Shown here: positions 4,252 through 24,099 of the stretch, one piece after another | Layout of the letters: each line of letters begins with the position of its first letter | Numbering within the stretch: the stretch's first letter is position 1 | DNA from: Patescibacteria group bacterium | Lineage (GTDB): Bacteria > Patescibacteriota > Patescibacteriia > XYB2-FULL-38-15 | NCBI GenBank assembly: GCA_041737355.1 | Contig: JBGSRW010000010.1 | Location: forward strand, 3,935-67,934 | Direction of reading: 5' to 3' | Length of the DNA: 64,000 nucleotides | Program-made: the position numbers and the translations under genes | The notes under the pieces: generated by a model | The model's database searches: none | Told to the model about the DNA's origin: nothing | The model's input: only the letters and a program-made list of their open reading frames with translations

Positions 4252-4252
4252 A

Positions 4253-4294: not shown

Positions 4295-4318
4295 CGTGAG
4301 TGATCTCCTTTTCCGGAT

Positions 4319-4645: not shown

Positions 4646-4646
4646 C

Positions 4647-4967: not shown

Positions 4968-5052
4968 TCCCGGCCTCCTTTCAAACCTCGGTTAAGTTTA
5001 ACTTTTTAAGTCAATTTGTCAAGGTACCAAGTTTCTGCGATAATATGGGAAG

Positions 5053-5850: not shown

Positions 5851-5857
5851 AAATTTT

Positions 5858-6604: not shown

Positions 6605-6614
6605 AATAAAAGTT

Positions 6615-7634: not shown

Positions 7635-7649
7635 ATCAAAAATTAGCCC

Positions 7650-7678
7650 TTGACACTTTCCCGTTTTTCCGCTATAAT
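7650..7678 (+). promoter_or_regulatory. Consensus sigma70 promoter (TTGACA, 17 nt, TATAAT)
   Basis: Perfect hexamers with 17-nt spacing. Confidence 0.65.
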
Positions 7679-7754
7679 AAAAGCACAATTGAAGAATCGT
7701 TTTTCGTGAGAGACTCTTCCTTTGGCAAGAGTTTTTTGTTCAAAAACCAACATT

Positions 7755-7976
7755 ATGGACATGGAAATTACAAAATATACATTTATCAGCGACTGGCGCG
7801 ACGCGGCCAAGGCCCAGGGGTACTTTGTCCCTTTTCAGCTCTGCAACGGGCTCGCGATCACCATGAAAAAACACAGCCTTAGCTTTGTCGAGGCTTTTGA
7901 ATACCTGACAAAACGCAATAAGATATTTTTGGACAATCTCGAGTTTTCCTACGACGGAAGCGGAGACGAGTTATAA
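7755..7976 (+). CDS. Hypothetical small protein
   Basis: ORF downstream of the promoter. The 5' leader contains a hairpin plus T-run. Confidence 0.5.
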   Translation: MDMEITKYTFISDWRDAAKAQGYFVPFQLCNGLAITMKKHSLSFVEAFEYLTKRNKIFLDNLEFSYDGSGDEL

Positions 7977-7991
7977 TTTTTAAAGAAGTTT

Positions 7992-8027
7992 GGCGCGGGG
8001 TATAATCCCCGCGCCTTTTTGTTTTTG
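7992..8027 (+). terminator. Rho-independent terminator (palindrome gcgcggggTATAATccccgcgc plus T-run)
   Basis: 8-bp perfect GC stem with T5 and T5. Confidence 0.8.
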
Positions 8028-8137
8028 CTTTTAAATTAACGCCAAATATGCTAAAATTAGGCTGTAATCAATAAATACGCGGCAATGGTCGTAACCGCGT
8101 TTAGCCTAAAAACGGATAATTATTAAATTAAAAATAT

Positions 8138-8497
8138 ATGGATTCATCATACAGCTCGCGCTCTACCAAGCCGTTATACCGCAGCACCCAGATTGTCTGG
8201 TATATCGTCGGCCTCCTTGAAGTGCTTTTGGCGTTCAGGTTCGTTTTAAAACTTCTTGCCGCCAATCCCGCGGCCGGTTTTACCAGCTTTATTTACGCTG
8301 TCAGTTATATTTTTGCCGCGCCGTTCCTTGCCGTTTTCCGCGTCACAAAAGTTGAAGGAAGTATTTTCGAATGGACGACCCTTTTGGCCATGGCCGTTTA
8401 CGCGCTCGTTGCCTGGGGCGTTGTCAGGCTTTTGTTCATGAGCAAGACGGTCTCCACTCCGGAAGCCGCGGAAAAATTGAACGAAGAAAACAAGTAA
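8138..8497 (+). CDS. YggT-like small membrane protein
   Basis: Two or three TM helices. Resembles the YggT/Ycf19 fold. Confidence 0.5.
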   Translation: MDSSYSSRSTKPLYRSTQIVWYIVGLLEVLLAFRFVLKLLAANPAAGFTSFIYAVSYIFAAPFLAVFRVTKVEGSIFEWTTLLAMAVYALVAWGVVRLLFMSKTVSTPEAAEKLNEENK

Positions 8498-8525
8498 TTT
8501 TTTCAAAAGTTAAAAGACAAAATTT

Positions 8526-8774
8526 ATGGGAATTATTCTTTGGATTATTTTCGGGGGACTGGTCGGCTGGGTCGCCTCCATGATTATGAAGACCAATGCG
8601 CAGCAGGGCATTATCCTGAATGTCATCGTCGGCATTGTCGGCGCGGTATTGGGCGGCTGGATCATGAGCTTATTCGGTAAAAGCGGGGTGGGTACTTTTA
8701 ATTTGTACAGTTTCCTCGTGGCGCTGCTCGGAGCAATTGTCCTTGTCGCGATTGTGAAGGCCTTGAGGCGTTAA
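8526..8774 (+). CDS. GlsB/YeaQ/YmgE family stress-response membrane protein
   Basis: Gly-rich TM repeats GGLVGW...GIVGAVLGGWI. Confidence 0.7.
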   Translation: MGIILWIIFGGLVGWVASMIMKTNAQQGIILNVIVGIVGAVLGGWIMSLFGKSGVGTFNLYSFLVALLGAIVLVAIVKALRR

Positions 8775-8794
8775 AGATATAGAATAAATTAGAG

Positions 8795-8824
8795 GGCGCG
8801 GGGTATAATCCCCGCGCTTTTTGG
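8795..8824 (+). terminator. Rho-independent terminator, identical palindrome to the one at 7992
   Basis: ggcgcggggtataatccccgcgc followed by tttttgg. Confidence 0.8.
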
Positions 8825-8890
8825 TAAAAAAAAGGAGAGGGGCGCGGGGCGCTCCCTCTCGGGGGTTTGATGTTGTCCGGATGGGGCGGG

Positions 8891-9214
8891 CTAGTAGCGG
8901 ACGGTGCACTTCCGGCAGTCAGGAAGGACGGCCTTGGACATCGTGTCCATGATCGCCTCGACCTGGTGCCGGCGTGCCTCTTTGCGCGCCTGGAAGGCGT
9001 TCACGAGCTGGACCTTGAGGCCGGTCTGCTCCTCGTCCGGCACGTCCTGGAGTACGAGCATCGCGTCGAGGTGTCCGGCGCAGAAGGCGAGATCGACCGG
9101 CATCGGGCCGAGCGTGGCGACTTCCTTGCCGGACTTGCGGAGAATGACGTTGCATTCGCAGCCGCAGCCGCAGAAAAGAACCTCGATCGTGTAGGTCAAA
9201 AGTTCGATTCCCAT
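8891..9214 (-). CDS. Cys-rich hypothetical protein (CGCGCEC ... C...C..C)
   Basis: Internal Met with a GGAGGAG RBS. GC-rich. The upstream part of the annotated ORF has no RBS. Confidence 0.55.
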   Translation of the reverse strand: MGIELLTYTIEVLFCGCGCECNVILRKSGKEVATLGPMPVDLAFCAGHLDAMLVLQDVPDEEQTGLKVQLVNAFQARKEARRHQVEAIMDTMSKAVLPDCRKCTVRY

Positions 9215-9326
9215 CTTTTTTCTCCTCCTTCTTTTTCCGCCGGGGCTTTTCGCCCGGGCGGCTAATCCTAATTTCAGGATACCCCTTAATATATCATTTT
9301 TTCGGTCAATTGTCAACCCCCGCGCT

Positions 9327-9355
9327 TTGACTTTAAGCCAGGTTTTTGGGATAAT
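9327..9355 (+). promoter_or_regulatory. Sigma70-like promoter (TTGACT, 17 nt, GATAAT) for the defense-island operon
   Basis: Hexamers with 17-nt spacing, 36 nt upstream of the 9391 ATG. Confidence 0.55.
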
Positions 9356-9390
9356 TGAGGAAAGAATTCTATTAATTTATTTCATAAAAT

Positions 9391-12300
9391 ATGAATGGTC
9401 AATTCGTAAAAGAATATATAGTTACGGTTTCCGAAAAATACAAAACCGGCCAAGCCAAAGAGCACGCTTACCGTCCGGCGCTAGAAAAGTTGTTTCAAGA
9501 TATTACTGGTCTTGAGGTAATTAATGATCCAAAACAGAGCGAATATGGTGCGCCGGATTTTGTTTTTATAAAAGATAAACTCGCTTTGGCTTATGCGGAA
9601 GCTAAAGATGTCAAAGTGTCTCTTGACGAAATTGAAAAAAGCGAACAGGTCGTCAGATATTTTGGTTACTCGAACTTGATTTTAACCAATTATCTTGAAT
9701 TCAGATTTTTTCGCAATGGAGAAAAATATGGTGAACCAATAAAAATTGCCGAAATTATAGATAACAAAATAATACCGGCCGAAAGCAGCACTCATTTGCA
9801 GGATGAAATTGCGGAATTTATCGCTCAAGCTAAAGAACCGATAAAATCAGGCGCTTTGTTGGCAAAAGTTATGGCTGGAAAAGCCCGTCGTATTCGTGAT
9901 AATATCAGTGTTTTTTTGGCAAAGGATGGCCCCGAAAATCAAAGTTTGATGGATATTTACAATGTTATAAGAAAAATGCTTCTCCCGGATTTGGATTATG
10001 AGCGATTTGCGGATATGTATGCGCAAACCGTTGTTTATGGTTTGTTTGTCGCTCGATATCATGATGAATCACCAGGGACATTTTCCCGACAGGAGGCGCG
10101 CGATTTGATGCCGGCGTCAAATCCGTTTTTACGTGAATTTTTTAACCACATCGCCGGTCCATCATACGATCCGCGCATAGAATTTATTGTGAAGGAACTT
10201 TGTGAAGAATTCGGGCATGCCGATGTGTCAGCCATTGTCCATAATTATTATAAAACTGAAAAAGATAATAATCGCGATCCGATAATTCATTTCTATGAAG
10301 ATTTTTTGAAGGAGTATGATCCTAAATCGCGCATGAAATTAGGTGTTTTCTATACGCCATTGCCGGTTGCCCGTTTCATTGTACGTTCAGTAGATGAAAT
10401 TTTAAAAAAAGATTTTAAGTTAGCCGGGCTGTCTGATTCTTCTGAAATCGAAATAAAAAAACAAATCCAAAATAATAAAGTTAAAGCGACCGAACGTGTC
10501 CATAAGGTGCAAATTTTGGATCCCGCGACCGGGACAGGAACATTTCTCAATGAAGTTATTTCACTTGTCCATGAATCATTCGTCGGGCAAGAAGGCAGAT
10601 GGCCAAGCTATGTTCGAGAAGATTTTTTACCGCGCTTGCATGGTTTTGAATTGATGATGGCCTCTTATGTTATTGCGCATTTAAAACTTTCGTCGTCTTT
10701 CAAGGAAACAGGCGTGGATTTGGATGGTACATGGTTAGGCGTCTATCTCACAAATTCTTTGGAAAAAGCAAAAAAAGAAGACGATACTCTATTTGCCGGA
10801 TTGGGATTTGATAAGGCAATTACAGCTGAATCAAAGGCTGCTGGAAAGATAAAGACGGAGTTGCCAATTATGGTAGTGCTAGGGAACCCGCCTTATAGCG
10901 GAGTTTCGTCGAATGAAACGGAATATGCCAATAGCCTCGTGGAAAAATACAAAGTTGAACCAGGCGGAAAGCAAAAATTGCAAGAACGTAAACACTGGCT
11001 GAATGACGATTATGTAAAATTTATCGCCTTGGCCGAGAACATGGTTGAAAAAAACGGCGAAGGCATCGTGGGTTACATTACAAACCATGGCTATCTTGAC
11101 AATCAGACCTTCCGCGGCATGCGCTGGCATCTCATGGATACTTTTGATTCGATATATGTGTTCGATCTCCATGGAAATGCGAAGAAGCACGAAGTTTCGC
11201 CGGACGGCAGCAAGGATGAAAATGTATTTGATATCCAGCAAGGCGTGGCGATTATAATTGCCGTTAAGACAGGAGTGAAAAAGGCCGGAAACTTGGCAAA
11301 AGTGTATCGGGCTGATCTGTGGGGAAAGAGAGAGCATAAATTTGAACGGCTTAACGAACTTTCGATTGAAAACACAAAATGGCTATCGCTCAAACCTCGA
11401 ACGCCCTATTTATTTTTTGCGCCGGAAGGCTCGATGAAACTTGAGACTGAATATCAAATCGGATTTAGTATAAACGAACTTTTTGTTGAAAATAGCACCG
11501 GTATTGTAACTATGGGGGACGGTTTTATTATTGGCGAAGATAAAGAATCGCTTGAAAACAGAGTCGTGAATTTTTTACGCGATGATGATTCAGAAAATAT
11601 ACTGAAAGAAAACTTTAACCTAGGTAAAAATTACGCAAAGTGGATTATCGGCAACAAAAAAGATATCGTAGTTGATCATGATAAAATTACTACATTTTCT
11701 TATCGTCCGTTTGATGATAGATATACCTATTTTGATAACAAGCTTGTCTGGCGGCCGCGTACAAAGATTATGCGAAATTTTGTTAAAAAAAATAACATAG
11801 GGTTGATTGCAACAAGGCTTAATCGTCAGTTAAGTAGCGGTTATTTTTTCTTAACAAGTAAAATTGTAGATTTTCACATATTGGATAGCGCTGGAGATTC
11901 AACATCTGCTTTTCCACTTTATCTTTATTTTGAAGATGGCACAAAAAGTTCTAATCTTAAAAAAGAAATGGTATCAGAAATTGAAAAAATCGTCGGGGAT
12001 GTTGTACCCGAAAATATTTTCGATTATATCTATGCGGTTTTGCATTCGCCGAGTTATCGAGAAAAATACAAAGAGTTTTTGAAAATAGATTTTCCGCGCG
12101 TGCCATATCCGAAAAATGAGAAACAATTTTTCGCGTTAGCCAAGTTGGGCGAGGAGTTGCGGCATTTGCACTTGCTGGAAAGTCCAAAAGTTGAAAAATT
12201 TATCACTACTTATCCCGAGGCGGGAGAGAATTTGGTGGAGAAAGTCGTCTACAAAGACGGCAAAGTTTACATCAACGCTTCGCAATATTTTGGCGGCGTG

Positions 12301-12477
12301 CCGGAAGTCGCGTGGGATTTTTACATCGGCGGTTATCAGCCGGCGCAGAAATGGCTGAAAGATCGCAAAGGCCGCAAGCTCACGAATGCCGATATTGAAC
12401 ATTATCAGAAAATCATCGTGGCACTCGTTGAGACGGATAGAATAATGAAGGAAATCGACAAAAATATATCCATCTAA
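9391..12477 (+). CDS. Type IIG/IIL restriction-modification enzyme (MmeI-like): N-terminal PD-ExK nuclease fused to a gamma-class N6-adenine DNA methyltransferase and a target-recognition domain
   Basis: PD...EAK motif (APDFVFIK...AEAKD) near the N-terminus. Methyltransferase motif I ILDPATGTGTFL. Motif IV VVLGNPPYSG. 1028 aa. Low GC. Confidence 0.8.
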   Translation: MNGQFVKEYIVTVSEKYKTGQAKEHAYRPALEKLFQDITGLEVINDPKQSEYGAPDFVFIKDKLALAYAEAKDVKVSLDEIEKSEQVVRYFGYSNLILTNYLEFRFFRNGEKYGEPIKIAEIIDNKIIPAESSTHLQDEIAEFIAQAKEPIKSGALLAKVMAGKARRIRDNISVFLAKDGPENQSLMDIYNVIRKMLLPDLDYERFADMYAQTVVYGLFVARYHDESPGTFSRQEARDLMPASNPFLREFFNHIAGPSYDPRIEFIVKELCEEFGHADVSAIVHNYYKTEKDNNRDPIIHFYEDFLKEYDPKSRMKLGVFYTPLPVARFIVRSVDEILKKDFKLAGLSDSSEIEIKKQIQNNKVKATERVHKVQILDPATGTGTFLNEVISLVHESFVGQEGRWPSYVREDFLPRLHGFELMMASYVIAHLKLSSSFKETGVDLDGTWLGVYLTNSLEKAKKEDDTLFAGLGFDKAITAESKAAGKIKTELPIMVVLGNPPYSGVSSNETEYANSLVEKYKVEPGGKQKLQERKHWLNDDYVKFIALAENMVEKNGEGIVGYITNHGYLDNQTFRGMRWHLMDTFDSIYVFDLHGNAKKHEVSPDGSKDENVFDIQQGVAIIIAVKTGVKKAGNLAKVYRADLWGKREHKFERLNELSIENTKWLSLKPRTPYLFFAPEGSMKLETEYQIGFSINELFVENSTGIVTMGDGFIIGEDKESLENRVVNFLRDDDSENILKENFNLGKNYAKWIIGNKKDIVVDHDKITTFSYRPFDDRYTYFDNKLVWRPRTKIMRNFVKKNNIGLIATRLNRQLSSGYFFLTSKIVDFHILDSAGDSTSAFPLYLYFEDGTKSSNLKKEMVSEIEKIVGDVVPENIFDYIYAVLHSPSYREKYKEFLKIDFPRVPYPKNEKQFFALAKLGEELRHLHLLESPKVEKFITTYPEAGENLVEKVVYKDGKVYINASQYFGGVPEVAWDFYIGGYQPAQKWLKDRKGRKLTNADIEHYQKIIVALVETDRIMKEIDKNISI

Positions 12478-12478
12478 T

Positions 12479-12895
12479 ATGTACGAAGAAAATGGCAACG
12501 TAATAAATATAAAAGCAGCTAGGTTGAGCGCTGATCCCAGGATAGTCGGATTATTTACAAAGGATAAAAGATTGATAGAAAAAGTTATTTATTGTGTTTT
12601 CTATCCAAAAAAAGAGTTGCATGTTTATCGGGAGAGTTCGGAAGAAAAAGGTGAATATAGTTGCGAGATTTATGATTTTGAAGATGTGGTTCCAAAATTT
12701 AGGGAAAAATTAGGTGAAAAATTTGTCAGAGAAGATGGTGTCGAGAGCCTAGAACAAAATCAGCTCATCAAAAAATTTTTTATTGCGGGCATTAAATTAT
12801 TCAGTTATGAAAATATTACAGAAGAGGATAGAAAAATAATTGAGGAAATTTTTATTTCCGCAAAAAGAAAAGTTGATGAGAGAATTAAAGGGTAA
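12479..12895 (+). CDS. Hypothetical protein (138 aa) in the defense operon
   Basis: Starts 2 nt after the stop of the type IIG enzyme gene. No recognizable motif. Confidence 0.5.
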   Translation: MYEENGNVINIKAARLSADPRIVGLFTKDKRLIEKVIYCVFYPKKELHVYRESSEEKGEYSCEIYDFEDVVPKFREKLGEKFVREDGVESLEQNQLIKKFFIAGIKLFSYENITEEDRKIIEEIFISAKRKVDERIKG

Positions 12896-12919
12896 TTTAA
12901 TTTTTTTTGAAATAAATTA

Positions 12920-14338
12920 ATGGAAATAGACTTTGGCACAATTGCTGATAAAATATCGTACGACAAATACGAAGATATTGACAGCAAGATAAGAGATGAT
13001 TTGGGTTTGGACCAGGCCATGGACTTTATATCCAACAAGATTGCTCCCCAGGTTAATACGAGATTATTAAACGTCGCCTACCTGCCCTATCTTTTGTCCG
13101 GAGTTGATTTCGCCTCTAACCAGGTTAAAATTTATCAGCAAAATAATAAAATAAAGGATCGCGCTCAATTGAGAAGGCGATTTTTATTTTGGCTTGACTT
13201 GTTCGAGTTCTGCTTGGCCTGGACTTTCAAAGAAAATAATGAAAAATCTTTTATTGGAATGCAAAAAAATCAATTTGAAAAAAATATTTTTTTAGAATTT
13301 TTAAATAACCTGGCTAATACTGATCTAAAAAAAGATCTATCCTTTCGGGGTAAATTTTTAACTAGCCGGCTTTCTTACGCTTTTGACAGGCATAAATATA
13401 CTATGCAAATGTTGGGTTTAGTTGAGCCGATGCAGGGTACGCATAGCGTTTATCAGGTCAGTAATGTTGATTGTTTGAAAGATTCTCCACTTTATAAAAC
13501 CATGAGATACCTTAATTACGAGTTATCTCCCAACGAGGTCGTAAAAAGTTTTTATAAAGCGTATTTTGAAAAAAATAAAAAAAATATAACCTTAAAAAAT
13601 AAAAAATTTGGCCGAAAACTCTGGGACGATATTTTATTTGACGAAGTGACACTTAAACAATTTTTGCCAGAATATTTGCCGGCCATAGCCATGAGAGATA
13701 TTAGTTACGATAAGATTATCGCCAATACAATTGAACTCAAGAAAAAAATAGAAACCAGCAAGGGAGAAATTTTTTCTCGAGAGCTTATTTCCAGGGATGA
13801 GTATAAAAAGCTTTTGGGAAAGATTGACTTTTCAGCCAAAAAACTTGATCCGAATGTAGATTTATTTTTAGCTCTGCTCAGGATTCTCAATTATTTTTAT
13901 TATACGCCCAGGCAGATGCTGAATGAAATCAACAGGATGATAAAAAACGATAATTACGCGACCCTGGATAAAGTTAAAAATAGGCTGATAAAAACATATG
14001 AATGGCAGGAGAAAAGCCGGGATTTTAACGATGGGAAAATGACAAAATTTCTCGGGAAAATAGCTGAGATAGATGATACTTTTGGAAGTGTCTTAGATTT
14101 CTTGAAAAGTTTTTATAAAAAAGAAAACCAGCATGATCCGTTAAATTTGATAAAGGTTTTAGGAGAAAGAGTTTCGCGGGTTAAGGGATTAGGTGGACAA
14201 GTTTATTCAGTGTCCAATAACCAGATATCTATTAATGACCAGGAATATAGGGAAAAATTTAAAATTGCTACCACGATTGAGCCTTATTATTCGCGCTTAG
14301 GCATTTTAAAAATGATTTATCGGCAATGCCATGAATAA
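12920..14338 (+). CDS. Hypothetical protein (472 aa) in the defense operon
   Basis: Long ORF with island-typical low GC. No recognizable motif. Overlaps the next gene by 8 nt. Confidence 0.6.
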   Translation: MEIDFGTIADKISYDKYEDIDSKIRDDLGLDQAMDFISNKIAPQVNTRLLNVAYLPYLLSGVDFASNQVKIYQQNNKIKDRAQLRRRFLFWLDLFEFCLAWTFKENNEKSFIGMQKNQFEKNIFLEFLNNLANTDLKKDLSFRGKFLTSRLSYAFDRHKYTMQMLGLVEPMQGTHSVYQVSNVDCLKDSPLYKTMRYLNYELSPNEVVKSFYKAYFEKNKKNITLKNKKFGRKLWDDILFDEVTLKQFLPEYLPAIAMRDISYDKIIANTIELKKKIETSKGEIFSRELISRDEYKKLLGKIDFSAKKLDPNVDLFLALLRILNYFYYTPRQMLNEINRMIKNDNYATLDKVKNRLIKTYEWQEKSRDFNDGKMTKFLGKIAEIDDTFGSVLDFLKSFYKKENQHDPLNLIKVLGERVSRVKGLGGQVYSVSNNQISINDQEYREKFKIATTIEPYYSRLGILKMIYRQCHE

Positions 14339-16100
14339 TTTTTCTAAAAGCAGCAAGGTTAAAGACATTTTTAAAAAGCCCAAAGGCTTTGAGCTGAAAG
14401 AGGCAATTGTCTTTACCTATTCCCTGGAAAGCAGTTTTTTGTATGATGCCTTTTTGCCTTTTTTATGCAATAACAATACCGGCGAATGGATCAGGGATAG
14501 GTCTAACCATCTGAAAGTTTTTATAAACTCCAGCAGCCTGTCGGGCGAATTGCCTTTAAATTTATTAGGCAATATAAATCAGATTAAGACAGCTGAAAAT
14601 TCTTCTTTCCATCCTAAAATTTATTTTTTTAAATATCGAAAAGATAAAAAAGTTTTTTGTCAGATGGTTCTCGGCTCTTTCAACCTGACGGCAGACGGCT
14701 TTAATCAGAATAATGAATTCTACGCCTCGTTGTCAGGCGGGAAGAAGAACAAGTCAGGGCAGAAGCAAAAGCAGAGCTTGATAAAGTTTGTCGAGTTAGC
14801 TTTAAACGCTGCACTGGCGCTCGCTCCCAGCGAACGGAGAGAAAATCTGGCAAGAATAAAATCAATCATTGAATTTTTGGATTGGCCTGATGGGGTAGAA
14901 TTTTATTTTACCGCACCTAAATATTCAGGAAAGGAGATGGGTTTTTCGGGAAATAAATGTATTATGGTTTCTCCCTTTTGGGACGCCGCTGCCATCAACC
15001 GTTTGTCGAAGAATGCCAAACAAGTGTCATTATATTATAATTATCTATCCGAGGCCGACGCAGCGCCTTTTGAGCCGAAAAAAATAGAAGGATCAAATAA
15101 ATTTTCCTGTTTCCAGCTGAACGAAAAAAAATTAGACAAAAAGAAGCTGCACGGGAAATTATATTATTTTGGTGACGAAAAGTTCGGAAATATTTATCTT
15201 GGTTCCGCAAATTGCACGAGCAGGGCGGTTATCAGGGGGAAAAATTATGAAGCCGGCCTAGTTTTTAAGGCTAATTATCAACATTTGAAAAACTGGCTAG
15301 ACGATAAATTTAAAAAAGTTGAATTTCCCCAAAATTATTATCAAGATAAGCTAGCTGAAGACAAAAATAAAAAAGATTATGACAATGTTTATAATATGCT
15401 GGAGGCCGGGTTTTTTGTCCAAAACTCAAAAATGGCTGTAGTTATTAAAATCGAAAAACCCGAGATGTTAAAAAAATATAAGCTTACTTGTCATGACCGG
15501 CCCATTGATGATTCGCCCTTCCAAATCCCAATAGGGGAGACAAAAAATTTACCAGGCTCAATTGAAGTATTGATAAGTGAAACTTCCTACCAGTTACCAA
15601 TATCAGGTACGTATGAGCAAGAGCGGGGACCAATTAAATATCTGGATTATGAGGGCTGGTATAACTTCAAAAAAAATTACATTTCCTTGAAGTGTAATTC
15701 GCCGGAGGATCTGTTGGATTTGTATCTGGATAATATTGCCATTGATGATTTTTTTGAATTTGGCGGAGAGATGATGTTTAACAGCAATTGGCGCGAAAGA
15801 AAATTTCCTTACAAAAAATTAATGGAGCTACTTTATGGCAGCCCTGTTTTGGCAAAAATTAATTTATCTAGCAGATGCCTCAATTTTATTGAAGGCTTAG
15901 CAGCCCGGGACGATTTTGGCGAAAGAAAGAGAGGAGTTTTTTTTGCTGATTTTGAAAATTATGACAATGAAAAAGAATACCGCGATGCCTTTTTTGTTTA
16001 CTGGAAAAAATATCTGAACGAGAATAAAAAATCCCTTGACCGTGAATCGCGGATAAAAGTAAAAAAGCTGCTTGTAAAAATAGAGGCCTTGAGAAAATAA
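14331..16100 (+). CDS. Phospholipase D-family nuclease with two HKD-like motifs
   Basis: HPKIYFF...LGSFNLT and HGKLYYFGDE...LGSANCT, each HxK...GSxN, separated by about 180 aa. About 290-aa C-terminal extension. Confidence 0.7.
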   Translation: MNNFSKSSKVKDIFKKPKGFELKEAIVFTYSLESSFLYDAFLPFLCNNNTGEWIRDRSNHLKVFINSSSLSGELPLNLLGNINQIKTAENSSFHPKIYFFKYRKDKKVFCQMVLGSFNLTADGFNQNNEFYASLSGGKKNKSGQKQKQSLIKFVELALNAALALAPSERRENLARIKSIIEFLDWPDGVEFYFTAPKYSGKEMGFSGNKCIMVSPFWDAAAINRLSKNAKQVSLYYNYLSEADAAPFEPKKIEGSNKFSCFQLNEKKLDKKKLHGKLYYFGDEKFGNIYLGSANCTSRAVIRGKNYEAGLVFKANYQHLKNWLDDKFKKVEFPQNYYQDKLAEDKNKKDYDNVYNMLEAGFFVQNSKMAVVIKIEKPEMLKKYKLTCHDRPIDDSPFQIPIGETKNLPGSIEVLISETSYQLPISGTYEQERGPIKYLDYEGWYNFKKNYISLKCNSPEDLLDLYLDNIAIDDFFEFGGEMMFNSNWRERKFPYKKLMELLYGSPVLAKINLSSRCLNFIEGLAARDDFGERKRGVFFADFENYDNEKEYRDAFFVYWKKYLNENKKSLDRESRIKVKKLLVKIEALRK

Positions 16101-16109
16101 TTTTTTTAA

Positions 16110-18635
16110 ATGGAGCTATTTTCTTTCCAAAAAAAGACAGCTAAGAGGGCGATGGATCTTATGTTTGCTAAGTCTAATCCGACTGATGCGGTTTTTATAA
16201 TTGATGAAGTTGGTCTGGGAAAAACTAAAGAGGCGCTGGAAATCCTCAGAAGAAGCAGGGAGAAACTAAGGGGCAAGTTTAAAGCAATCATCATTACCCC
16301 CTCAAAAAGGCTGATTAGCCAATGGAAAAAGGAAAGCCGGGAATTTAATTCCGAAAAACAAATTTTTAACATTGAGCCAAGCGAGGCGACAAGAAAATTA
16401 TATGAAAGCGGAAAAATAACCCTTATCAACGCCGCCTTGAACTACGACCAAAAAATCAATCTAGCATTTTCCAGCGGCAATGAATTGAAAAATTTCAGGT
16501 CAACTAATTATCTGGAGCGCGAGTATATAATGTCTTTTTTTTCAAAAAGAAAAAGGGGCAAAAAATTTTTCAGGAAGCTGGGCGTTTCTCAAAATCAAAT
16601 TCCGGATGTTTACAATAAATCATTCCGAAAAATAAGCCGTAAAGACATTTCTTTGAGTGAGGCAATAAAAAGCATTAAAGATCAAACAAGTATTTCAGAG
16701 TTTAAGAAAAGATGGTTGGAAAATATAGGGGAAAGGCATAAATTTACTTCCATTGTAGTTGATGAATTCCATAATTATGTTAATTTAGCGGCTAAAAAAA
16801 ATTTAGATAAAATTTCTGGTGAGGAAAAAGAGGTCGATTATGATATCCAAATCTGGGACGAATTTTTCAGGTTGCAGGCGGATGACGGAGCTAGGAAGGT
16901 TAAAAAAATTTACTTATCAGCTACGCCGTTCAAGCCAATCAGATTGAACATCGGTCCTGAAAATCAAAATGACCCGATTTCTTATATCTTGAATGGGCTG
17001 AGTAATTCTTTCACCTATGGAGACCAGGAAAAGCTTGGCAAAAAGATTTTGAATTATAATGAGAATGTTTTAGAGATAAGAAAAAAAATAGCTTATCTAG
17101 CGAATAATCTAGGCAAGAAGGATATTAACGGAAAAGATATAGCAGAAGTTTTAAAAGATAGGGAGTTAATTGAGCTTAAGAGTAAAATAACAATAACTAA
17201 GCGGGAGATTGAAAAAATATTGAGCCGCTATTTATTGAGAAACGAAAGGAAACAAAAGAAATTTACAAGGATAACGATTGCTAAAACAATTAAAATTTCT
17301 AAAGAATTTGATAGATATATAAATCTTTTTGAAGCAATGTATCGAAGTAGATCAGTAGATCAAAGGTATGACGGCCTGCAAACCTATTTTACTTCCGGCG
17401 ATTTTTTTGACCGTTCGTATAAGCGTGAACATTATAAGGCGCTGGAAAATCTAAAGAAGAAAAGTAAATATCTTAAAAAATCTGATTTTAGAAATTATTT
17501 AAAAACGCACCCTAAATTAGAAGAGCTTAAAAAAATAATAAGAGAAGATTTGAAATGGTTCAAGTCTAAAGGCAACCCTCCTTGTTGGTTAGACGTTTAT
17601 AATCCCGAGGGGTATTCTAAGGCGCTTGTTTTTTGCGGCTATAGAGGTACACAGAATTATTTGGAAAAAGAAACAAAAAAGGAATATGAACATAAAGTTA
17701 AAAAAATATTTAAACCCTCAAATGTTTTGAAGAATACAATTGAAAAAATGTTTAAAAATATTACCGGCTATGATGGTATCGAGGAAAAACAGAGGGATAT
17801 CGTAGAAAATTTCTACGGATATCTGCCTTCGTATATTAAGAGATGGGGTTTAAGAAAAAGCGAGAGAGTTACAGCCAGGCAATTAAAGCGGTATATCAAA
17901 AAAAATAAATTGGAAGAAGTATTAAAATATTATTTTGAACGTGTTTGCGATAAAAAGCAGGAAAAATTTTTCGAAAACATTAAGGCCATTACAGAATGGA
18001 CACTGATGCAAAGCAGGCACGGCGTAATTGCCAAGTACGGAGAAATGTCAGGCGGCAAAGGAAAAAGAAGCGGGGTTGAGCGCATAGAGGATCTGCGGAC
18101 TGCCTTTAACTCCCCATTTTATCCCTACATTATGATTTCTACTAATGCTGGTTCGGAGGGGATTAGTCTGCATTCTTATTGCCGCAATGTTATCCATTAC
18201 GAACAGGATTGGATGCCAGCAACAATTGAACAAAGAAGTGGCAGGGTAGATAGGATAAATTCACTGGCGGCAAGGTTAAGAATAGAAGAGATTAAAGATA
18301 AAAATGATTTGGAAAAATTAAAGCATAGTCCCCACGCCGATCATTTACTAGAGCCAGGCAAGCCACAAGTTGAAGTTTGCGATCATTACATGCATAATAA
18401 AGATGTAAAAATAAATATATACCGGCTGGTTATGGAAGCAACCATAGACGAATATATGTATAATAGGGAGAGGGAACGTGCATTATGGGTTGATTTGTTT
18501 GTTGGCGGAGAAGATGTTAACAAAATGTTGGATTCAAGCGTCGGTTTGAATTTCAATATTTCTGATGAGAGCGTTAAATTGGAGTTAGATAAATTGATAG
18601 AGGAAATAAAAATAAAAGTAGGAGAAATAAAATAA
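16110..18635 (+). CDS. SNF2-family (SF2) helicase-like ATPase
   Basis: Motif I IIDEVGLGKT, motif II VVDEFHNY, motif III LSATPF, motif V STNAGSEGISL, motif VI DWMPATIEQRSGRVDRI (SNF2-like DWNP...Q..R..R). Confidence 0.75.
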   Translation: MELFSFQKKTAKRAMDLMFAKSNPTDAVFIIDEVGLGKTKEALEILRRSREKLRGKFKAIIITPSKRLISQWKKESREFNSEKQIFNIEPSEATRKLYESGKITLINAALNYDQKINLAFSSGNELKNFRSTNYLEREYIMSFFSKRKRGKKFFRKLGVSQNQIPDVYNKSFRKISRKDISLSEAIKSIKDQTSISEFKKRWLENIGERHKFTSIVVDEFHNYVNLAAKKNLDKISGEEKEVDYDIQIWDEFFRLQADDGARKVKKIYLSATPFKPIRLNIGPENQNDPISYILNGLSNSFTYGDQEKLGKKILNYNENVLEIRKKIAYLANNLGKKDINGKDIAEVLKDRELIELKSKITITKREIEKILSRYLLRNERKQKKFTRITIAKTIKISKEFDRYINLFEAMYRSRSVDQRYDGLQTYFTSGDFFDRSYKREHYKALENLKKKSKYLKKSDFRNYLKTHPKLEELKKIIREDLKWFKSKGNPPCWLDVYNPEGYSKALVFCGYRGTQNYLEKETKKEYEHKVKKIFKPSNVLKNTIEKMFKNITGYDGIEEKQRDIVENFYGYLPSYIKRWGLRKSERVTARQLKRYIKKNKLEEVLKYYFERVCDKKQEKFFENIKAITEWTLMQSRHGVIAKYGEMSGGKGKRSGVERIEDLRTAFNSPFYPYIMISTNAGSEGISLHSYCRNVIHYEQDWMPATIEQRSGRVDRINSLAARLRIEEIKDKNDLEKLKHSPHADHLLEPGKPQVEVCDHYMHNKDVKINIYRLVMEATIDEYMYNRERERALWVDLFVGGEDVNKMLDSSVGLNFNISDESVKLELDKLIEEIKIKVGEIK

Positions 18636-18642
18636 TTTATAT

Positions 18643-19173
18643 TTGATAAATATTTTAAACGATCGGATTTTTAGTATGGATGTTAATAAAGAAAGAAAAG
18701 TTTGCCGGGATTATTTGGTGGCGCGTAAGAAATTTTTAAAATTTGCTAATAAAAGTGAATTATTGCGGGGCAATGATAATATTATTGGCAGCCGAATTGG
18801 GGAATTTATTGCCTGGGAATTTTTGGATAAACAAAAAAGGAAGCCGAAGATGAATGAGCGAGCTAATGTTGAAGGTCATGATATGGTTTGTAAGGATGGC
18901 AAAAAAATTTCCGTTAAACTAATTAGTCCGGAGAACAAAACGGGAAGAACGACAAGGTTGGGTAAAAATTGGGATGAATTTTTATTAATTATTCTCGGCG
19001 ATAATTATAAAGTAGCTAAAATTGGTCATATCACCCGAAGCCAATTTAATAAAGATAAAAAAATAAGGAGTGCTAACCCGTATACAACTCGATCGATGTT
19101 AGGGGAAAAGGGTTTGTTTGTAAGATCTAGGGGGCGTGTTTATAAAAAGGAAGAAGTTAGTTGGTTAATATAG
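18643..19173 (+). CDS. Hypothetical protein (176 aa), last gene of the defense operon
   Basis: TTG start at 18643 with an alternative ATG at 18676. Basic protein. Weak D...VK pattern. Confidence 0.45.
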   Translation: MINILNDRIFSMDVNKERKVCRDYLVARKKFLKFANKSELLRGNDNIIGSRIGEFIAWEFLDKQKRKPKMNERANVEGHDMVCKDGKKISVKLISPENKTGRTTRLGKNWDEFLLIILGDNYKVAKIGHITRSQFNKDKKIRSANPYTTRSMLGEKGLFVRSRGRVYKKEEVSWLI

Positions 19174-19206
19174 CTGGGAGAAGAGAAAATAAAATTGAAA
19201 TAAATT

Positions 19207-19545
19207 ATGGATCCAGCGGTTCGGACAATGGTAAACAAAATGCTTATTGGTTTTTGGCCGATTTTTGTTTGTCTGATAGGAATTTTAGCTATTTTGTTAA
19301 TAGATATATATGTATACCGGTTGGCGAAACCGTGGATAGCCAAGAAAGATAAGATGTTGGTTAGTTTGCTTTTTAGATTTTTGGGAGTGATTGGGTTTTT
19401 TATGGTGCTCGGATTATTGATTTCTTCCCTTGCGGATGCGTGGCAATCATTTTATTGGTATGGAGCGGGATTAGTTGCGGTAATTTTGGGATTTGCATTG
19501 GTGGCGATAGTTTTGAAATATAAATTTTTGAGAAATAAAAAATAA
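19207..19545 (+). CDS. Small membrane protein
   Basis: Three predicted TM helices. Confidence 0.5.
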   Translation: MDPAVRTMVNKMLIGFWPIFVCLIGILAILLIDIYVYRLAKPWIAKKDKMLVSLLFRFLGVIGFFMVLGLLISSLADAWQSFYWYGAGLVAVILGFALVAIVLKYKFLRNKK

Positions 19546-19565
19546 ATATTTTAAGCGAAAAATTT

Positions 19566-19913
19566 GTGGATAAGAAAATTGCCGGATATATTGAGAAACA
19601 AAAATCTCCCCAAAAGGAAATTTTAGAGGAAGTAAGGAAAATAATCTTGAAAACGCTTCCCGGCTGCGGCGAGGAGGCAAAATGGGGAGTTATTGCCTTT
19701 GCCGGCGGAAAATTTTATATTGCCGCCCTCCGGGATTCGGTCAATATCGGTTTTGCCATCGGCGGTTTGGATAAAAAAGAAATCGGCCTTTTTTCTGGCG
19801 GCGGAAAAACCATGAGGCACATTAAGATCCGGACAAAAAAAGAAATTGACGAGAAAAAGTTAAGGAAACTCTTAAAACTCGTTTATAAAAAGGCCAAATG
19901 CCAGCCTTGTTAA
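19566..19913 (+). CDS. DUF1801 (YdhG-like) domain protein
   Basis: GTG start. Pattern typical of DUF1801 (GYIEKQKSPQKEILEEVRKIIL...GVIAF...FYIAA). Confidence 0.55.
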   Translation: MDKKIAGYIEKQKSPQKEILEEVRKIILKTLPGCGEEAKWGVIAFAGGKFYIAALRDSVNIGFAIGGLDKKEIGLFSGGGKTMRHIKIRTKKEIDEKKLRKLLKLVYKKAKCQPC

Positions 19914-19929
19914 ATTTTAAAATAATTTT

Positions 19930-20151
19930 ATGGACGAACAATTTTTAGTTCAAAACGCGTGGGTTATCGGGCTGGCCGTACTCTGGACCCTGCCCTGGAA
20001 AGGAATGGCCCTGTGGAAAGCCGCCAGAAACAGCGATAAATGGTGGTTCATCGCCCTCATGCTGATTAACACCTTGGGCTTGCTGGAAATTCTCTATATT
20101 TTCATTTTCAGCAAAAAGAAAAGCGAACCGACGCAACCGCAAAACGTGTAG
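19930..20151 (+). CDS. Small membrane protein
   Basis: Two TM helices. Confidence 0.5.
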   Translation: MDEQFLVQNAWVIGLAVLWTLPWKGMALWKAARNSDKWWFIALMLINTLGLLEILYIFIFSKKKSEPTQPQNV

Positions 20152-20185
20152 CGTGAAGCGTAATAAATTTGATAAACCGTAAACT

Positions 20186-20476
20186 ATGTTTGAAAATTTT
20201 GCCTGGTCAACGAGGGAATCGGTTTTGTCCGTTTTTTGGGCGGTTTATGTGAGCTGCCTTTTGGCCAATATTTATTATTTCTGGAAAAACGAGACCTGGA
20301 AGATCCCGGGGGCGATGCTCCGGCTGGGCAGGCCGCTTGTTCTCTACGGTTTGCTTGCCGTCATGCTCGTTACGGCGCCGGCCGAGATGGAAAAATTTTA
20401 CGGCTACATGATGCTCATCTTTTTTCTTTTTGTCCTCCCGATTATTGACGTAATCAGGCTCGTGATAAAAAAATAG
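20186..20476 (+). CDS. Small membrane protein
   Basis: Three TM helices. Confidence 0.5.
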   Translation: MFENFAWSTRESVLSVFWAVYVSCLLANIYYFWKNETWKIPGAMLRLGRPLVLYGLLAVMLVTAPAEMEKFYGYMMLIFFLFVLPIIDVIRLVIKK

Positions 20477-20477
20477 A

Positions 20478-20557
20478 CCCGTCGACAAGTATTACACGCT
20501 TTGCCCTCGTTCCCGCGCTCGGGCGCGGAGAACTCGGGACACATTATAAAAATATAA
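20478..20557 (+). repeat. Conserved intergenic element, copy A (CGACAAGTATTA...CGTTCCCGCG...CGCGGAGAACTCGGGACACATTATAAAAA)
   Basis: About 80 nt sharing blocks with 28862-29004. Ends directly at a start codon. Confidence 0.6.
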
Positions 20558-20800
20558 ATGTATTACTTATACATCCTCGAATGTTCCGATAAAACTTTGT
20601 ACACCGGCATTACGACCGATCCGGCCCGGAGAACCGCGGAGCACAATTCGTCAAAGCTTGGCGCGAGGTATACCCGGACCCGCCGGCCGGTAAAACTCGT
20701 TTATTCAAAAAAATTTAAGAATCGTTCGGCAGCCGCCAAAGAAGAAAGCCGGATTAAGAAACTATCAAGGGATGAGAAATTGGAATTGGTAAACGCATGA
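20558..20800 (+). CDS. GIY-YIG nuclease family protein
   Basis: YLYILECSDKTLYTGITTDPARRTAEHN, a canonical GIY-YIG motif. Confidence 0.8.
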   Translation: MYYLYILECSDKTLYTGITTDPARRTAEHNSSKLGARYTRTRRPVKLVYSKKFKNRSAAAKEESRIKKLSRDEKLELVNA

Positions 20801-21456
20801 TTAAAATAGATAAAATTATCCGTTCCCGGAGAAAAACCCTTGCCCTTATCGTCTCTCCTGATGCGGTGCTCACGGTCCGCGCCCCGCACTGGATTTCCCT
20901 GGACTATATTAAAAGTTTTGTCTTTGAAAAAAGATTTTGGATCAATAAAAAACAGCGGCAGATTTTAGCCCGGGGTGTGGTGAAGAAAAAAGAATTTGTA
21001 GAGGGCGAAGAATTTTTTTACCTTGGAGAAAAATACAAATTAAGAGTCCGGGATTGCGGGGAGATTGAATTGACTGACGATTTATATTTTCCCGCAAAAT
21101 ATCTCCGTGTTGCCCGGGCAATGATGGCTTCCTGGTATAAAAGAAAGACGCGGGAGATAATATTGGAGCGGGCCGGCTTTTACAGCAAAATGACCGGCTG
21201 GAAATTCAAATCGATTTCCGTTAACGGAGCCGAGAGGCGCTGGGGCTCCTGCGGAGCAAACGGGTCAATCAATTTCAGCTATCGGCTCGCGATGGCTCCG
21301 CCCGGGATAATCGATTATGTGGTTGCCCACGAGCTCGCCCATATTCCGGAGAAAAATCACTCGGCAAGATTCTGGGCCAAGGTTGGAATGGTTTTGCCCG
21401 ATTACAAGATAAGGCGGAAGTGGCTCAGGGATAATGAAAGAAATTTAAAAATTTAA
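20797..21456 (+). CDS. YgjP-like metallopeptidase (DUF45/M48-related, HEXXH)
   Basis: WGSC...YVVAHELAHIPEKNHSARFW. Confidence 0.75.
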   Translation: MIKIDKIIRSRRKTLALIVSPDAVLTVRAPHWISLDYIKSFVFEKRFWINKKQRQILARGVVKKKEFVEGEEFFYLGEKYKLRVRDCGEIELTDDLYFPAKYLRVARAMMASWYKRKTREIILERAGFYSKMTGWKFKSISVNGAERRWGSCGANGSINFSYRLAMAPPGIIDYVVAHELAHIPEKNHSARFWAKVGMVLPDYKIRRKWLRDNERNLKI

Positions 21457-21474
21457 TAAATAAAACTTAAACCT

Positions 21475-22329: not shown

Positions 22330-22334
22330 AAACC

Positions 22335-22589
22335 ATGAAAGATAAAAACAATCTTGAGATAATTCCCGGCGTGGGTAAAAGCATTGCCGAGGATTTGCGA
22401 AATATCGGCATCCAAACGGTCGCGGACCTGAAAGGCAAGGATCCGGAAAAATTGTTTGAAACGTCCAATCGCCATGAAGGCAAAAGACAGGACAGGTGCT
22501 TGCTGTATGTTTTCCGCGAAGCGGTCTATTTTGCCGAACATAAAAATCCCGATCCGGAAAAACTTAAATGGTGGAACTGGAAAGATTAA
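22335..22589 (+). CDS. Helix-hairpin-helix domain protein (Cdd1/pathogenicity-locus-like)
   Basis: IPGVGKSIAEDLRNIGIQTVADL. Confidence 0.6.
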   Translation: MKDKNNLEIIPGVGKSIAEDLRNIGIQTVADLKGKDPEKLFETSNRHEGKRQDRCLLYVFREAVYFAEHKNPDPEKLKWWNWKD

Positions 22590-22616
22590 AAATTTATTCC
22601 TAAAATAAAAAAACTT

Positions 22617-23411: not shown

Positions 23412-23431
23412 AATAATATTTATAAAATAAT

Positions 23432-24058: not shown

Positions 24059-24099
24059 AATGCAGCTTGTAAGTTATAATTTATATTTTTAATAAACCT

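What the first reader, a model, noticed from the sequence alone, without database searches (positions are those of the whole stretch)
14331..16100. Two-HKD PLD-family nuclease with a roughly 290-aa C-terminal extension
Both motifs are present as HxK-(x)n-GSxN with the canonical spacing for Nuc/BfiI-like nucleases. In the first, Lys replaces the usual Asp after the HKD. The gene overlaps the upstream gene by 8 nt, which suggests co-translation. The long C-terminal region may bind DNA or a partner (the SNF2 protein).
Basis: partly seen in the sequence, partly recalled or inferred. Interest (0 to 1): 0.55.

Follow-up and report, generated by a model that had tools for sequence, protein, structure and literature searches.

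The report
Divergent Azaca-type (ZacB) PLD nuclease gene
The gene is real and encodes a two-lobed phospholipase-D-type DNA nuclease that is a very divergent copy of ZacB, the nuclease of the known three-gene anti-phage system Azaca, sitting between its two partner genes in a foreign low-GC island next to a restriction enzyme.

Summary
ORF 14331..16100 (+, 589 aa) overlaps the upstream gene by 8 nt. It carries two HxK...GSxN motifs (H94/K96/N118, H274/K276/N294). These residues, plus an acidic residue after each motif (E129, E307), are invariant or nearly so in 42 relatives.

The best family match is neither DrmC nor MkoB. It is PADLOC ZacB (E 4e-30), the nuclease of the Azaca defence system. 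The next gene matches ZacC (3.9e-45) and has intact SF2 helicase motifs. The upstream 472-aa gene is a remote ZacA relative, linked only through intermediates and an N-terminal motif.

The same A-B-C triad recurs in metagenomic and candidate-phylum loci (L001, L002, L005) and in canonical DUF6361-ZacB-ZacC loci.

The missing Asp is a family trait: the first motif usually has Arg or Lys there. The predicted core (aa 10-333, pLDDT above 85) is a single-chain pseudo-dimer most like Tdp1.

The C-terminal tail is normal in length for ZacB (282 aa after E307, against about 240-280). Its sequence is unrecognisable and its fold could not be predicted.

The neighbouring 1028-aa DrdV-like Type IIL restriction-modification gene is not conserved in relatives' loci.

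Verdict: a rare, very divergent member of a known, little-studied system. Interest is moderate to low.

The parts
14331..16100 (+). ZacB-like PLD nuclease gene (589 aa), the finding itself
   Evidence: ORF. Pfam PLDc_2 and RE_NgoFVII above cutoff. PADLOC ZacB E 4e-30, aa 10-357 against model positions 10-388 of 586.
14331..15329 (+). Two-lobed PLD catalytic core (aa 1-333), a single-chain pseudo-dimer
   Evidence: AF2 block-mean pLDDT above 85 over most of aa 10-333, lower at about 241-270. Foldseek PDB top hits are Tdp1 (E 7e-11, about 385 columns), then PPK1, PLD1/2, SauUSI and NgoAVII. All homologue matches are confined to this part.
14610..14684 (+). Motif 1: H94-x-K96 ... G115-S116-x-N118. 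K101 sits at the position of the HKD Asp.
   Evidence: CAT CCT AAA read at 14610. H94, K96 and N118 are invariant. Position 101 is R in 21 and K in 14 of 42.
14715..14717 (+). E129, the acidic residue after motif 1 (D in 29 and E in 12 of 42 in the family)
14970..14978 (+). S214-P215-F216, a family signature at the start of lobe 2
   Evidence: P215 is invariant. S214 and F216 are at least 90% conserved.
15150..15212 (+). Motif 2: H274-x-K276 ... G291-S292-x-N294. G281 sits at the Asp position.
   Evidence: CAC GGG AAA read at 15150. Conserved in 41 of 41 ungapped rows. The family motif aligns without gaps to BfiI, SauUSI and NgoAVII.
15243..15251 (+). N305-x-E307, the conserved N-x-E after motif 2. 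It aligns with the N-x-E of BfiI, SauUSI and NucT.
15330..16097 (+). C-terminal region (aa 334-589) of unknown fold. Predicted as a helix plus beta hairpins, then a helical part.
   Evidence: pLDDT mostly below 50. pLDDT 41.9 when modelled alone with 4 sequences. No Pfam domain here in any of 42 relatives. No significant profile similarity to canonical ZacB tails or to the three closest tails.
15699..15719 (+). SPEDLLD (aa 457-463), a short motif shared with the closest relatives (SPDDLFD, SPDEIWD, SPDDIFD)
15804..15824 (+). FPYKKLM (aa 492-498), a second shared motif (FPFQSLM or FPFQTLM in relatives), with the same spacing and the same distance to the C-terminus
   Evidence: Spacing is 35 residues against 33-45 in relatives. 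None of 200,000 shuffles carried both motifs (regexes chosen after seeing the alignment).
12920..14338 (+). Upstream partner gene (472 aa), a probable remote ZacA homologue
   Evidence: No direct Pfam or PADLOC hit. BLASTP to L001A 8e-10 and to L002A 7e-4. L001A and L005A hit the N-terminus of PADLOC ZacA (6.7e-4, 4.4e-7). hhalign against canonical ZacA gives probability 52-63%, E about 1e-4, on the motif D-x-LG..P..NT..Y at equivalent positions. It has the same position in the operon as DUF6361 genes.
16110..18635 (+). Downstream partner gene (841 aa), a ZacC-like SNF2-type SF2 helicase or translocase
   Evidence: PADLOC ZacC 3.9e-45. Motifs GLGKT at 35, DEFH at 218, SAT at 270, QRSGRVDR at 708. 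29% identity over the full length to the L001 helicase (1e-62).
9400..20000 (.). Low-GC island (30-42% GC against 45-57% in the flanks) that holds the whole gene set
9391..12477 (+). Neighbouring single-chain Type IIL/IIG restriction-modification gene (1028 aa). It lies in the same island and probably the same transcript, but is not a conserved partner.
   Evidence: Pfam Type_ISP_C 4e-83 and N6_Mtase. PADLOC REase_MTase_IIG 5e-291. PDB 7lo5 (1029 aa) 7e-45, plus LlaBIII and LlaGI. Absent next to the triads in L001, L002, L004, L005, L013 and L015.

Best explanation
The gene encodes the nuclease subunit (ZacB type) of a very divergent Azaca-like three-gene anti-phage system.

The system reads ZacA-like (12920..14338), ZacB-like (14331..16100) and ZacC-like SF2 helicase (16110..18635). 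It was acquired horizontally in a low-GC island.

**Shown here**
- Family and operon assignment.
- Conservation of two H/K/N/acid quartets.
- A confidently predicted two-lobed PLD core.

**Inferred from PLD enzymology (Nuc, BfiI, Tdp1)**
- The two lobes form one active site.
- One His attacks the DNA phosphodiester to give a covalent phospho-histidine intermediate. The other His protonates the leaving group. No metal ion is required.

**Inferred from published work on Bm Azaca (bioRxiv 10.1101/2025.07.10.664194)**
- The nuclease is inactive alone and works in a ZacABC complex.
- The ATPase of the helicase is required for cleavage.
- The target there is phage DNA (T4, hypermodified).

**Speculative**
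- The C-terminal roughly 255 aa is most likely the part that docks ZacA and/or ZacC, or holds the DNA.
For: - PADLOC ZacB 4e-30 and ZacC 3.9e-45 are the best hits for the two adjacent genes.
- All 42 detectable homologues are ZacB (best 1e-172).
- Canonical relatives sit in DUF6361-ZacB-ZacC operons.
- Closer relatives L001, L002 and L005 show the same A-B-C order, with homologous A and C proteins.
- Catalytic residues are conserved.
- AF2 core with pLDDT above 85, Tdp1-like two-lobe fold.
- The family profile hits the nucleases SauUSI, BfiI, NgoAVII and NucT.
- The helicase motifs are intact.
- The genes lie in a low-GC island next to an R-M gene, the usual kind of place for defence genes.
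- Azaca biochemistry: all three proteins, the nuclease site and the ZacC Walker A motif are needed to cut T4 DNA.
Against: - The ZacB model covers only 64% of its length, and the C-terminal 230-250 aa is not matched.
- The upstream protein has no direct ZacA or DUF6361 hit. The link rests on intermediates and a roughly 40-residue motif (hhalign probability only 52-63%).
- ZacC here is 140-360 aa shorter than canonical ones and matches them only at the helicase motifs.
- There is no experiment on this clade.
- Target, trigger and the role of ZacA are unknown even for canonical Azaca.
Confidence: 0.75

Rival explanations
1. It is the PLD component (DrmC-like) of a DISARM-like, methylation-based system. 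That system would combine the upstream adenine methyltransferase, the SNF2-like helicase (DrmD-like) and this nuclease.
For: - A methyltransferase, an SNF2-like helicase and a PLD protein lie in one low-GC, same-strand gene block.
- One good promoter-like site lies upstream, and no strong terminator lies inside the block.
- Weak DrmC and DrmD hits.
Against: - DrmC hits are marginal: 1.1e-4 partial, and NCBIfam 12.2 bits against a cutoff of 133.
- DrmD scores 77 bits against a cutoff of 610.
- ZacB and ZacC score far better.
- No DrmA or DrmB (DUF1998) gene is present.
- The methyltransferase is a complete DrdV-like Type IIL R-M enzyme, self-sufficient on its own.
- It is absent from every related triad locus examined.
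Confidence: 0.07
2. The Azaca-like triad and the Type IIL R-M gene work as one coupled unit in this organism. Host methylation would spare self DNA from the PLD nuclease. The orphan 138-aa and 176-aa genes would be further parts of the unit.
For: - The genes are packed tightly: gaps of 1, 24, -8, 9 and 7 nt.
- They share low GC.
- There is a single strong promoter-like site at 9327-9355.
Against: - The association is not conserved in relatives.
- Defence genes often cluster without functional coupling.
- Canonical Azaca works without a methyltransferase.
Confidence: 0.1
3. It is not an endonuclease. It would instead be a Tdp1-like phosphodiesterase that removes protein or adducts from DNA ends, or a lipid-acting PLD.
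For: - The best structural matches are Tdp1 (E 7e-11), then PPK1 and PLD1/2.
- Both motifs lack the HKD Asp, as in the Tdp1 HKN motifs (the Tdp1 motif is from general knowledge).
- Two family members hit Pfam Tyr-DNA_phospho.
Against: - Foldseek favours Tdp1 largely because Tdp1 is also a single-chain two-lobe PLD.
- At sequence-profile level the hits are restriction-type nucleases: SauUSI, BfiI, NgoAVII and NucT.
- The family member tested experimentally cleaves DNA.
- The operon partner is a DNA translocase, not a lipid or repair gene.
Confidence: 0.06

Closest known systems
Azaca defence system (ZacA/ZacB/ZacC; Millman et al. 2022, as cited in PMC10952713; biochemistry in bioRxiv 10.1101/2025.07.10.664194)
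   Same: - Three same-strand, overlapping or abutting genes in the order A (unknown function), B (two-motif PLD of about 575-605 aa) and C (SF2 helicase).
- ZacB and ZacC are the best HMM hits.
- The same catalytic residues, including Arg or Lys in place of the HKD Asp.
- A tail of similar length after the PLD core.
   Different: - ZacA is not recognisable as DUF6361, apart from an N-terminal motif reached through intermediates. It is also longer (472 aa against 390-410).
- ZacC is 841 aa against 980-1204, and is similar only at the helicase motifs.
- The ZacB tail has no detectable similarity to canonical tails.
- The protein is a singleton at 90% identity. It has only two hits, itself included, at E <= 1e-10 among 1.84 billion representatives.
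Uncharacterised compact Azaca-like triads in metagenomes and candidate phyla: L001 (with L008 and L009), L002 (Ca. Goldiibacteriota MAG) and L003
   Same: - Gene order and sizes match: A 429-432 aa, B 599-680 aa, C 794-843 aa.
- C proteins are 28-29% identical over their full length.
- A proteins are similar over their N-terminal roughly 170 aa.
- The A/B overlap is 8 nt in L002.
- The B tails share the SP(D/E)(D/E)..D and FP(F/Y)..LM motifs.
   Different: - The window's B protein lacks the 60-90-aa insertion that these relatives have before motif 2.
- B identity is only 22-27%.
- None of these loci has a neighbouring Type IIL R-M gene.
SauUSI, BfiI and NgoAVII (PLD-type restriction endonucleases with solved structures)
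   Same: The second motif (LHxK...GSxN...NxE) aligns without gaps. SauUSI also pairs a PLD nuclease with an SF2 ATPase.
   Different: - BfiI and NgoAVII have one motif per chain and dimerise, with a B3-like DNA-binding domain.
- SauUSI fuses the nuclease and the helicase in one chain.
- Here two lobes sit in one chain, the helicase is separate, and a third protein is present.
Tdp1 (tyrosyl-DNA phosphodiesterase)
   Same: It is the best structural match to the predicted core (E 7e-11). It is also a single-chain two-lobe PLD whose motifs lack the Asp.
   Different: - 13-16% identity.
- Different biology (DNA-adduct repair).
- No helicase partner.
- No sequence-level hit from this protein.
DISARM DrmC and PADLOC candidate PDC-M27 (B and C genes)
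   Same: - PLD nuclease next to an SNF2-like helicase.
- Weak DrmC and DrmD hits.
- The helicase hits PDC-M27C at 5.8e-26, and 8 of 42 ZacB relatives hit PDC-M27B.
   Different: - DrmC is a short single-motif protein and fails the NCBIfam cutoff.
- There are no DrmA or DrmB genes.
- The window's B protein does not hit PDC-M27B at E <= 0.1.

Membership tests
PLD superfamily (Pfam PLDc_2, nuclease branch) | HMM score above the curated cutoff | tested here: met
   PLDc_2 scores 39.1 bits against 27. RE_NgoFVII scores 34.6 against 23.8.
PLD superfamily (Pfam PLDc_2, nuclease branch) | Catalytic His, Lys and Asn of each HxK...GSxN motif present and conserved among homologues | tested here: met
   H94, K96 and N118 are invariant. 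H274, K276 and N294 are present in 41 of 41 ungapped rows.
PLD superfamily (Pfam PLDc_2, nuclease branch) | Asp of the classical HxK(x)4D motif | tested here: not met
   K101 and G281 occupy that position. The family has R or K (35 of 42) at the first site and no conservation at the second. The same is true of Tdp1-type members (general knowledge), so this does not exclude the superfamily.
PLD superfamily (Pfam PLDc_2, nuclease branch) | Two lobes forming one active site | tested here: inconclusive
   The confident two-lobe model matches Tdp1 over about 385 columns.
ZacB (Azaca nuclease) | Match to the ZacB profile as the best defence-family hit | tested here: met
   PADLOC PDLC03829, E 4e-30, 103 bits, model positions 10-388 of 586. 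The next best hit is 2.9e-5. All 42 homologues hit ZacB.
ZacB (Azaca nuclease) | Full-length similarity, including the C-terminal half of the profile | tested here: not met
   Model positions 389-586 are unmatched. hhalign of the tails gives probability 4%. Tail length is nevertheless family-typical.
Azaca system | Adjacent ZacC SF2 helicase with intact ATPase motifs | tested here: met
   ZacC 3.9e-45. GLGKT, DEFH, SAT and QRSGRVDR motifs present.
Azaca system | Adjacent ZacA (DUF6361) protein | tested here: inconclusive
   No direct hit. There is a transitive link through L001A and L005A, and hhalign gives probability 52-63% on an N-terminal motif. The operon position is the same.
Azaca system | Gene order A-B-C on one strand, tightly linked | tested here: met
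   12920..14338, 14331..16100 and 16110..18635. The order is the same in L004, L012, L013 and L015.
Azaca system | Anti-phage activity, and DNA cleavage that needs all three proteins | not testable with these tools
   Known only for Bm and Kp Azaca.
DISARM (DrmC) | DrmC profile above cutoff, with DrmA and DrmB (DUF1998) genes present | tested here: not met
   NCBIfam DISARM_DrmC_I scores 12.2 bits against 133. DrmD scores 77 against 610. No DUF1998 or DrmA gene is found in the island.
Mokosh (MkoB/MkoC) | Match to the Mokosh PLD profiles | tested here: not met
   No Mko model appears among PADLOC hits at E <= 0.1.

The most novel reading that the evidence does not exclude
The window, L001 and L002 may represent a distinct compact subtype of Azaca.

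- ZacC is about 800-850 aa.
- ZacA has lost all but the N-terminal DUF6361 motif.
- The ZacB tail has been remodelled.
- Current defence finders would probably miss the system, because ZacA gives no hit.

In this genome the triad may be wired into one operon with a DrdV-like Type IIL R-M enzyme and two orphan genes. Methylation, or the R-M enzyme itself, would then cooperate with the PLD nuclease.
Probability: 0.12. Interest if true: 0.55.

Novelty: new member of a known kind. Interest (0 to 1): 0.33.

Why it matters
Azaca is a validated defence system that is barely understood mechanistically. The role of ZacA and of the ZacB tail is unknown, and there is no solved structure.

A member this divergent shows what the family cannot do without:
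- the two H/K/N/acid quartets;
- the SPF motif;
- the helicase motifs;
- a short N-terminal ZacA motif.

It also shows what is free to change: most of ZacA, the ZacB tail, and about 200 aa of ZacC. That helps in designing mutants and minimal constructs.

ZacA gives no PADLOC hit here, even at E <= 10. Tools that require all three Azaca genes would therefore probably miss systems like this in candidate phyla. I did not run any defence finder to check this.

Beyond that, it is one more defence gene in a defence island.

Tried and rejected
1. **Word-indexed homology searches.** Searches with ZacB-like, ZacA-like and a ZacA alignment returned only the queries themselves. Only the exhaustive HMMER scan found relatives.
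2. **Finding the source genome.** Exact look-ups of the window's proteins found no contig on record. The genome is not among the GTDB representatives scanned.
3. **Genome and metagenome scans.** Scans with the clade alignment added only L006 (a decayed locus), duplicates of L001 and L002, and fragments.
4. **C-terminal region.**
   - No Pfam domain in any family member.
   - hhalign against canonical tails is not significant.
   - HMM of the three closest tails against the window tail does not beat shuffles.
   - AF2 with 42 sequences gives pLDDT below 50 there.
   - AF2 of the tail alone with 4 sequences gives pLDDT 41.9.
   - No fold was assigned.
6. **Single-sequence PDB search.** Only chance hits.
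7. **DrmC, DISARM and Mokosh membership.** Rejected.
8. **Island boundary repeats.** Only AT-rich chance matches.
9. **PHROGs.** No hits for the island's orphan genes.
Full report
**1. The observation**

The window has an ATG-started ORF at 14331..16100 on the + strand, 589 aa. It overlaps the preceding ORF (12920..14338) by 8 nt, ATGAATAA. It ends 9 nt before the next ORF (16110..18635).

- H94-P-K96 ... G115-S-F-N118
- H274-G-K276 ... G291-S-A-N294

Pfam PLDc_2 scores 39.1 bits against a cutoff of 27. RE_NgoFVII scores 34.6 against 23.8. The match is therefore not a chance pattern.

**2.

The word-indexed search found only the protein itself.

An exhaustive HMMER scan of 1.84 billion representatives gave 51 hits at E <= 1e-3. 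Only two were at E <= 1e-10, the query included. Every match was confined to roughly aa 1-350.

In a 42-sequence alignment H94, K96, N118 and P215 are invariant. F93, S116, S214, F216, H274, K276, G291, S292, N294, N305 and E307 are at least 90% conserved.

Column counts add three points:
- An acidic residue follows each motif. At E129 the family has D in 29 and E in 12. E307 is present in 41 of 41 ungapped rows.
- The position of the classical HKD Asp is Arg or Lys in 35 of 42 sequences in motif 1. It is K101 here.
- That position is unconserved in motif 2, where it is G281 here.

**3. What family**

Against PADLOC the best hit by far is ZacB. E is 4e-30, covering aa 10-357 and model positions 10-388 of 586.

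The alternatives are weak:
- DrmC is marginal at 1.1e-4.
- No Mokosh model appears.
- NCBIfam DISARM_DrmC_I scores 12.2 bits against a cutoff of 133.

All 42 homologues hit ZacB, the best at 1e-172.

ZacABC is the Azaca anti-phage system. A 2025 preprint reports the following for Bm Azaca:
- It needs all three proteins, the nuclease active site and the ZacC Walker A motif to cut phage T4 DNA.
- It protects strongly against T4.
- ZacA carries DUF6361.

**4. The neighbours**

*Downstream gene.* The 841-aa protein hits ZacC at 3.9e-45. It has GLGKT, DEFH, SAT and QRSGRVDR motifs. Its only PDB sequence hit is an SNF2/Rad54-family domain.

*Upstream gene.* The 472-aa protein has no direct family hit.

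*Loci of relatives.* These were fetched by exact protein look-up:

| Locus | A protein | B protein | C protein |
|---|---|---|---|
| L004 (canonical) | DUF6361, 407 aa | 605 aa | 1204 aa |
| L012, L013, L015 (canonical) | DUF6361, 396-410 aa | 575-602 aa | 980-1062 aa (cut off by the contig end in L012) |
| L001 (closer) | 429 aa | 680 aa | 843 aa |
| L002, Ca. Goldiibacteriota MAG (closer) | 432 aa | 671 aa | 794 aa |
| L005 (closer) | 451 aa | 691 aa | 1078 aa |

L002 also has an 8-nt A/B overlap.

*Similarity of the window's proteins to these.*
- The window's C protein is 29% and 28% identical over its full length to those of L001 and L002. It matches canonical ZacC only at the helicase motifs.
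- The window's A protein matches L001A (8e-10) and L002A (7e-4) over its N-terminal roughly 170 aa.
- L001A and L005A hit the N-terminus of the ZacA model at 6.7e-4 and 4.4e-7.
- L001A matches four canonical ZacAs at 6e-4 to 6e-3.
- A profile-profile comparison aligns a D-x-LG...P..NT...Y motif at equivalent positions, with probability 52-63% and E about 1e-4.

I therefore read the upstream gene as a remote ZacA relative. This is likely but not proven.

**5. Structure**

AlphaFold2 with the 42-sequence alignment gives mostly high confidence for aa 10-333 (block means mostly above 85). Confidence is low for most of aa 334-589.

Foldseek against the PDB ranks the hits as follows:
- Tdp1 first, at E 7e-11 over about 385 aligned columns.
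- Then PPK1 and PLD1/2.
- Then the PLD domains of SauUSI and NgoAVII.

The family sequence profile instead hits SauUSI (1.9e-9), BfiI, NgoAVII and NucT. Motif 2 aligns without gaps, including the N-x-E.

The core is thus a single-chain pseudo-dimer, as in Tdp1 and unlike the one-motif Nuc or BfiI. Its sequence signature is that of restriction-type nucleases.

**6. The C-terminal 'extension'**

The window's protein has 282 residues after the conserved Glu. Canonical ZacBs have about 240-280. The tail is therefore a standard feature of the family by length.

Its sequence and fold could not be placed:
- No Pfam domain lies there in any member.
- It is not significantly similar to canonical tails.
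- It is not significantly similar to the three closest tails when scored as a whole.
- Its fold could not be predicted.

Two short collinear motifs do link it to the closest relatives. They are SPEDLLD at aa 457 and FPYKKLM at aa 492. Spacing and distance to the C-terminus match those of the relatives. None of 200,000 composition-matched shuffles carried both. The patterns were chosen after seeing the alignment, so this is suggestive only.

A role in docking ZacA, ZacC or DNA is inference.

**7. Setting**

Genes 9391..19173 lie in a low-GC block, 30-42% GC against 45-57% in the flanks.

The chromosome around it is ordinary. It carries ABC transporter genes, an M23 peptidase, ValRS, TyrRS, ArgRS, NusA, GroEL and PurA.

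The first gene of the block is a 1028-aa single-chain R-M enzyme:
- Pfam Type_ISP_C 4e-83.
- PADLOC Type IIG 5e-291.
- PDB 7lo5 7e-45, plus LlaBIII and LlaGI.

A good promoter-like site precedes it, and no strong terminator-like site lies inside the block. Co-transcription is therefore possible. None of the related triads has such a neighbour, so I treat it as a separate system in a defence island.

**8. Mechanism (most likely)**

ZacA-, ZacB- and ZacC-like proteins form a complex. The SF2 ATPase loads or translocates on DNA. The ZacB-like PLD site (H94 and H274, K96 and K276, N118 and N294, E129 and E307) cuts DNA through a covalent phospho-histidine intermediate without metal.

The family and operon assignments are shown here. 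The chemistry is inferred from PLD nucleases. The complex and the ATP dependence are inferred from Bm Azaca. Target specificity is unknown.

**9. Verdict**

- It is a rare, very divergent member of the known Azaca system, not a new kind of system.

Noticed in passing
window 9391..12477 (+): A 1028-aa single-chain Type IIL/IIG restriction-modification enzyme. PDB 7lo5 (1029 aa) 7e-45, plus LlaBIII and LlaGI. PADLOC REase_MTase_IIG 5e-291. By eye, the N-terminus shows a PD...E-x-K nuclease motif (GAPDFVF...AEAKD). It is the first gene of the low-GC island.
   Followed up: partly
window 12479..12895 (+): An orphan 138-aa ORF wedged between the R-M gene (1-nt gap) and the ZacA-like gene (24-nt gap). 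No hit in Pfam, PADLOC, NCBIfam or PHROGs. It is a singleton cluster in the 5.8-billion-cluster (about 15 billion protein) collection.
   Followed up: partly
window 18643..19173 (+): A 176-aa ORF with a TTG start, 7 nt after the helicase gene. Only weak hits: PADLOC methyl-directed Type II REase 0.0066, and DUF6998 0.031. By eye there is a possible PD-(D/E)xK pattern (GEF...HDM...SVK). It could be a small nuclease belonging to the island.
   Followed up: partly
window ~9400..20000: A sharp GC drop (30-42% against 45-57% in the flanks) marks a roughly 10-kb horizontally acquired block. No flanking direct repeats, tRNA or integrase gene were seen.
   Followed up: partly
L006 6300..13100 (Ca. Firestonebacteria MAG, JBBTED010000165.1): An Azaca-like locus of the same clade appears decayed or mis-assembled. 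The A, B and C reading frames are broken into pieces (198+291, 455+147 and 449+337 aa). The ZacB tail is missing.
   Followed up: partly
L013 1154..10325; L015 3784..13728: Canonical Azaca operons sit beside other defence-type genes. L013 has an AAA ATPase, SIR2 and a WYL regulator. L015 has WYL and SAVED proteins. This is typical defence-island context.
   Followed up: no
L001 331..1803: The compact Azaca-like triad in L001 (also L008 and L009) is preceded by a 490-aa DUF4062 + HATPase_c_4 protein, not by a methyltransferase.
   Followed up: no
window 1..64000: Nearly all long ORFs are on the + strand. The window carries a run of housekeeping genes (PurA, ValRS, TyrRS, ArgRS, NusA, GroEL, PEP-utilising enzyme) and 4 tRNAs. 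None of the window's proteins looked up is on record in the contig index, so the organism could not be named.
   Followed up: partly
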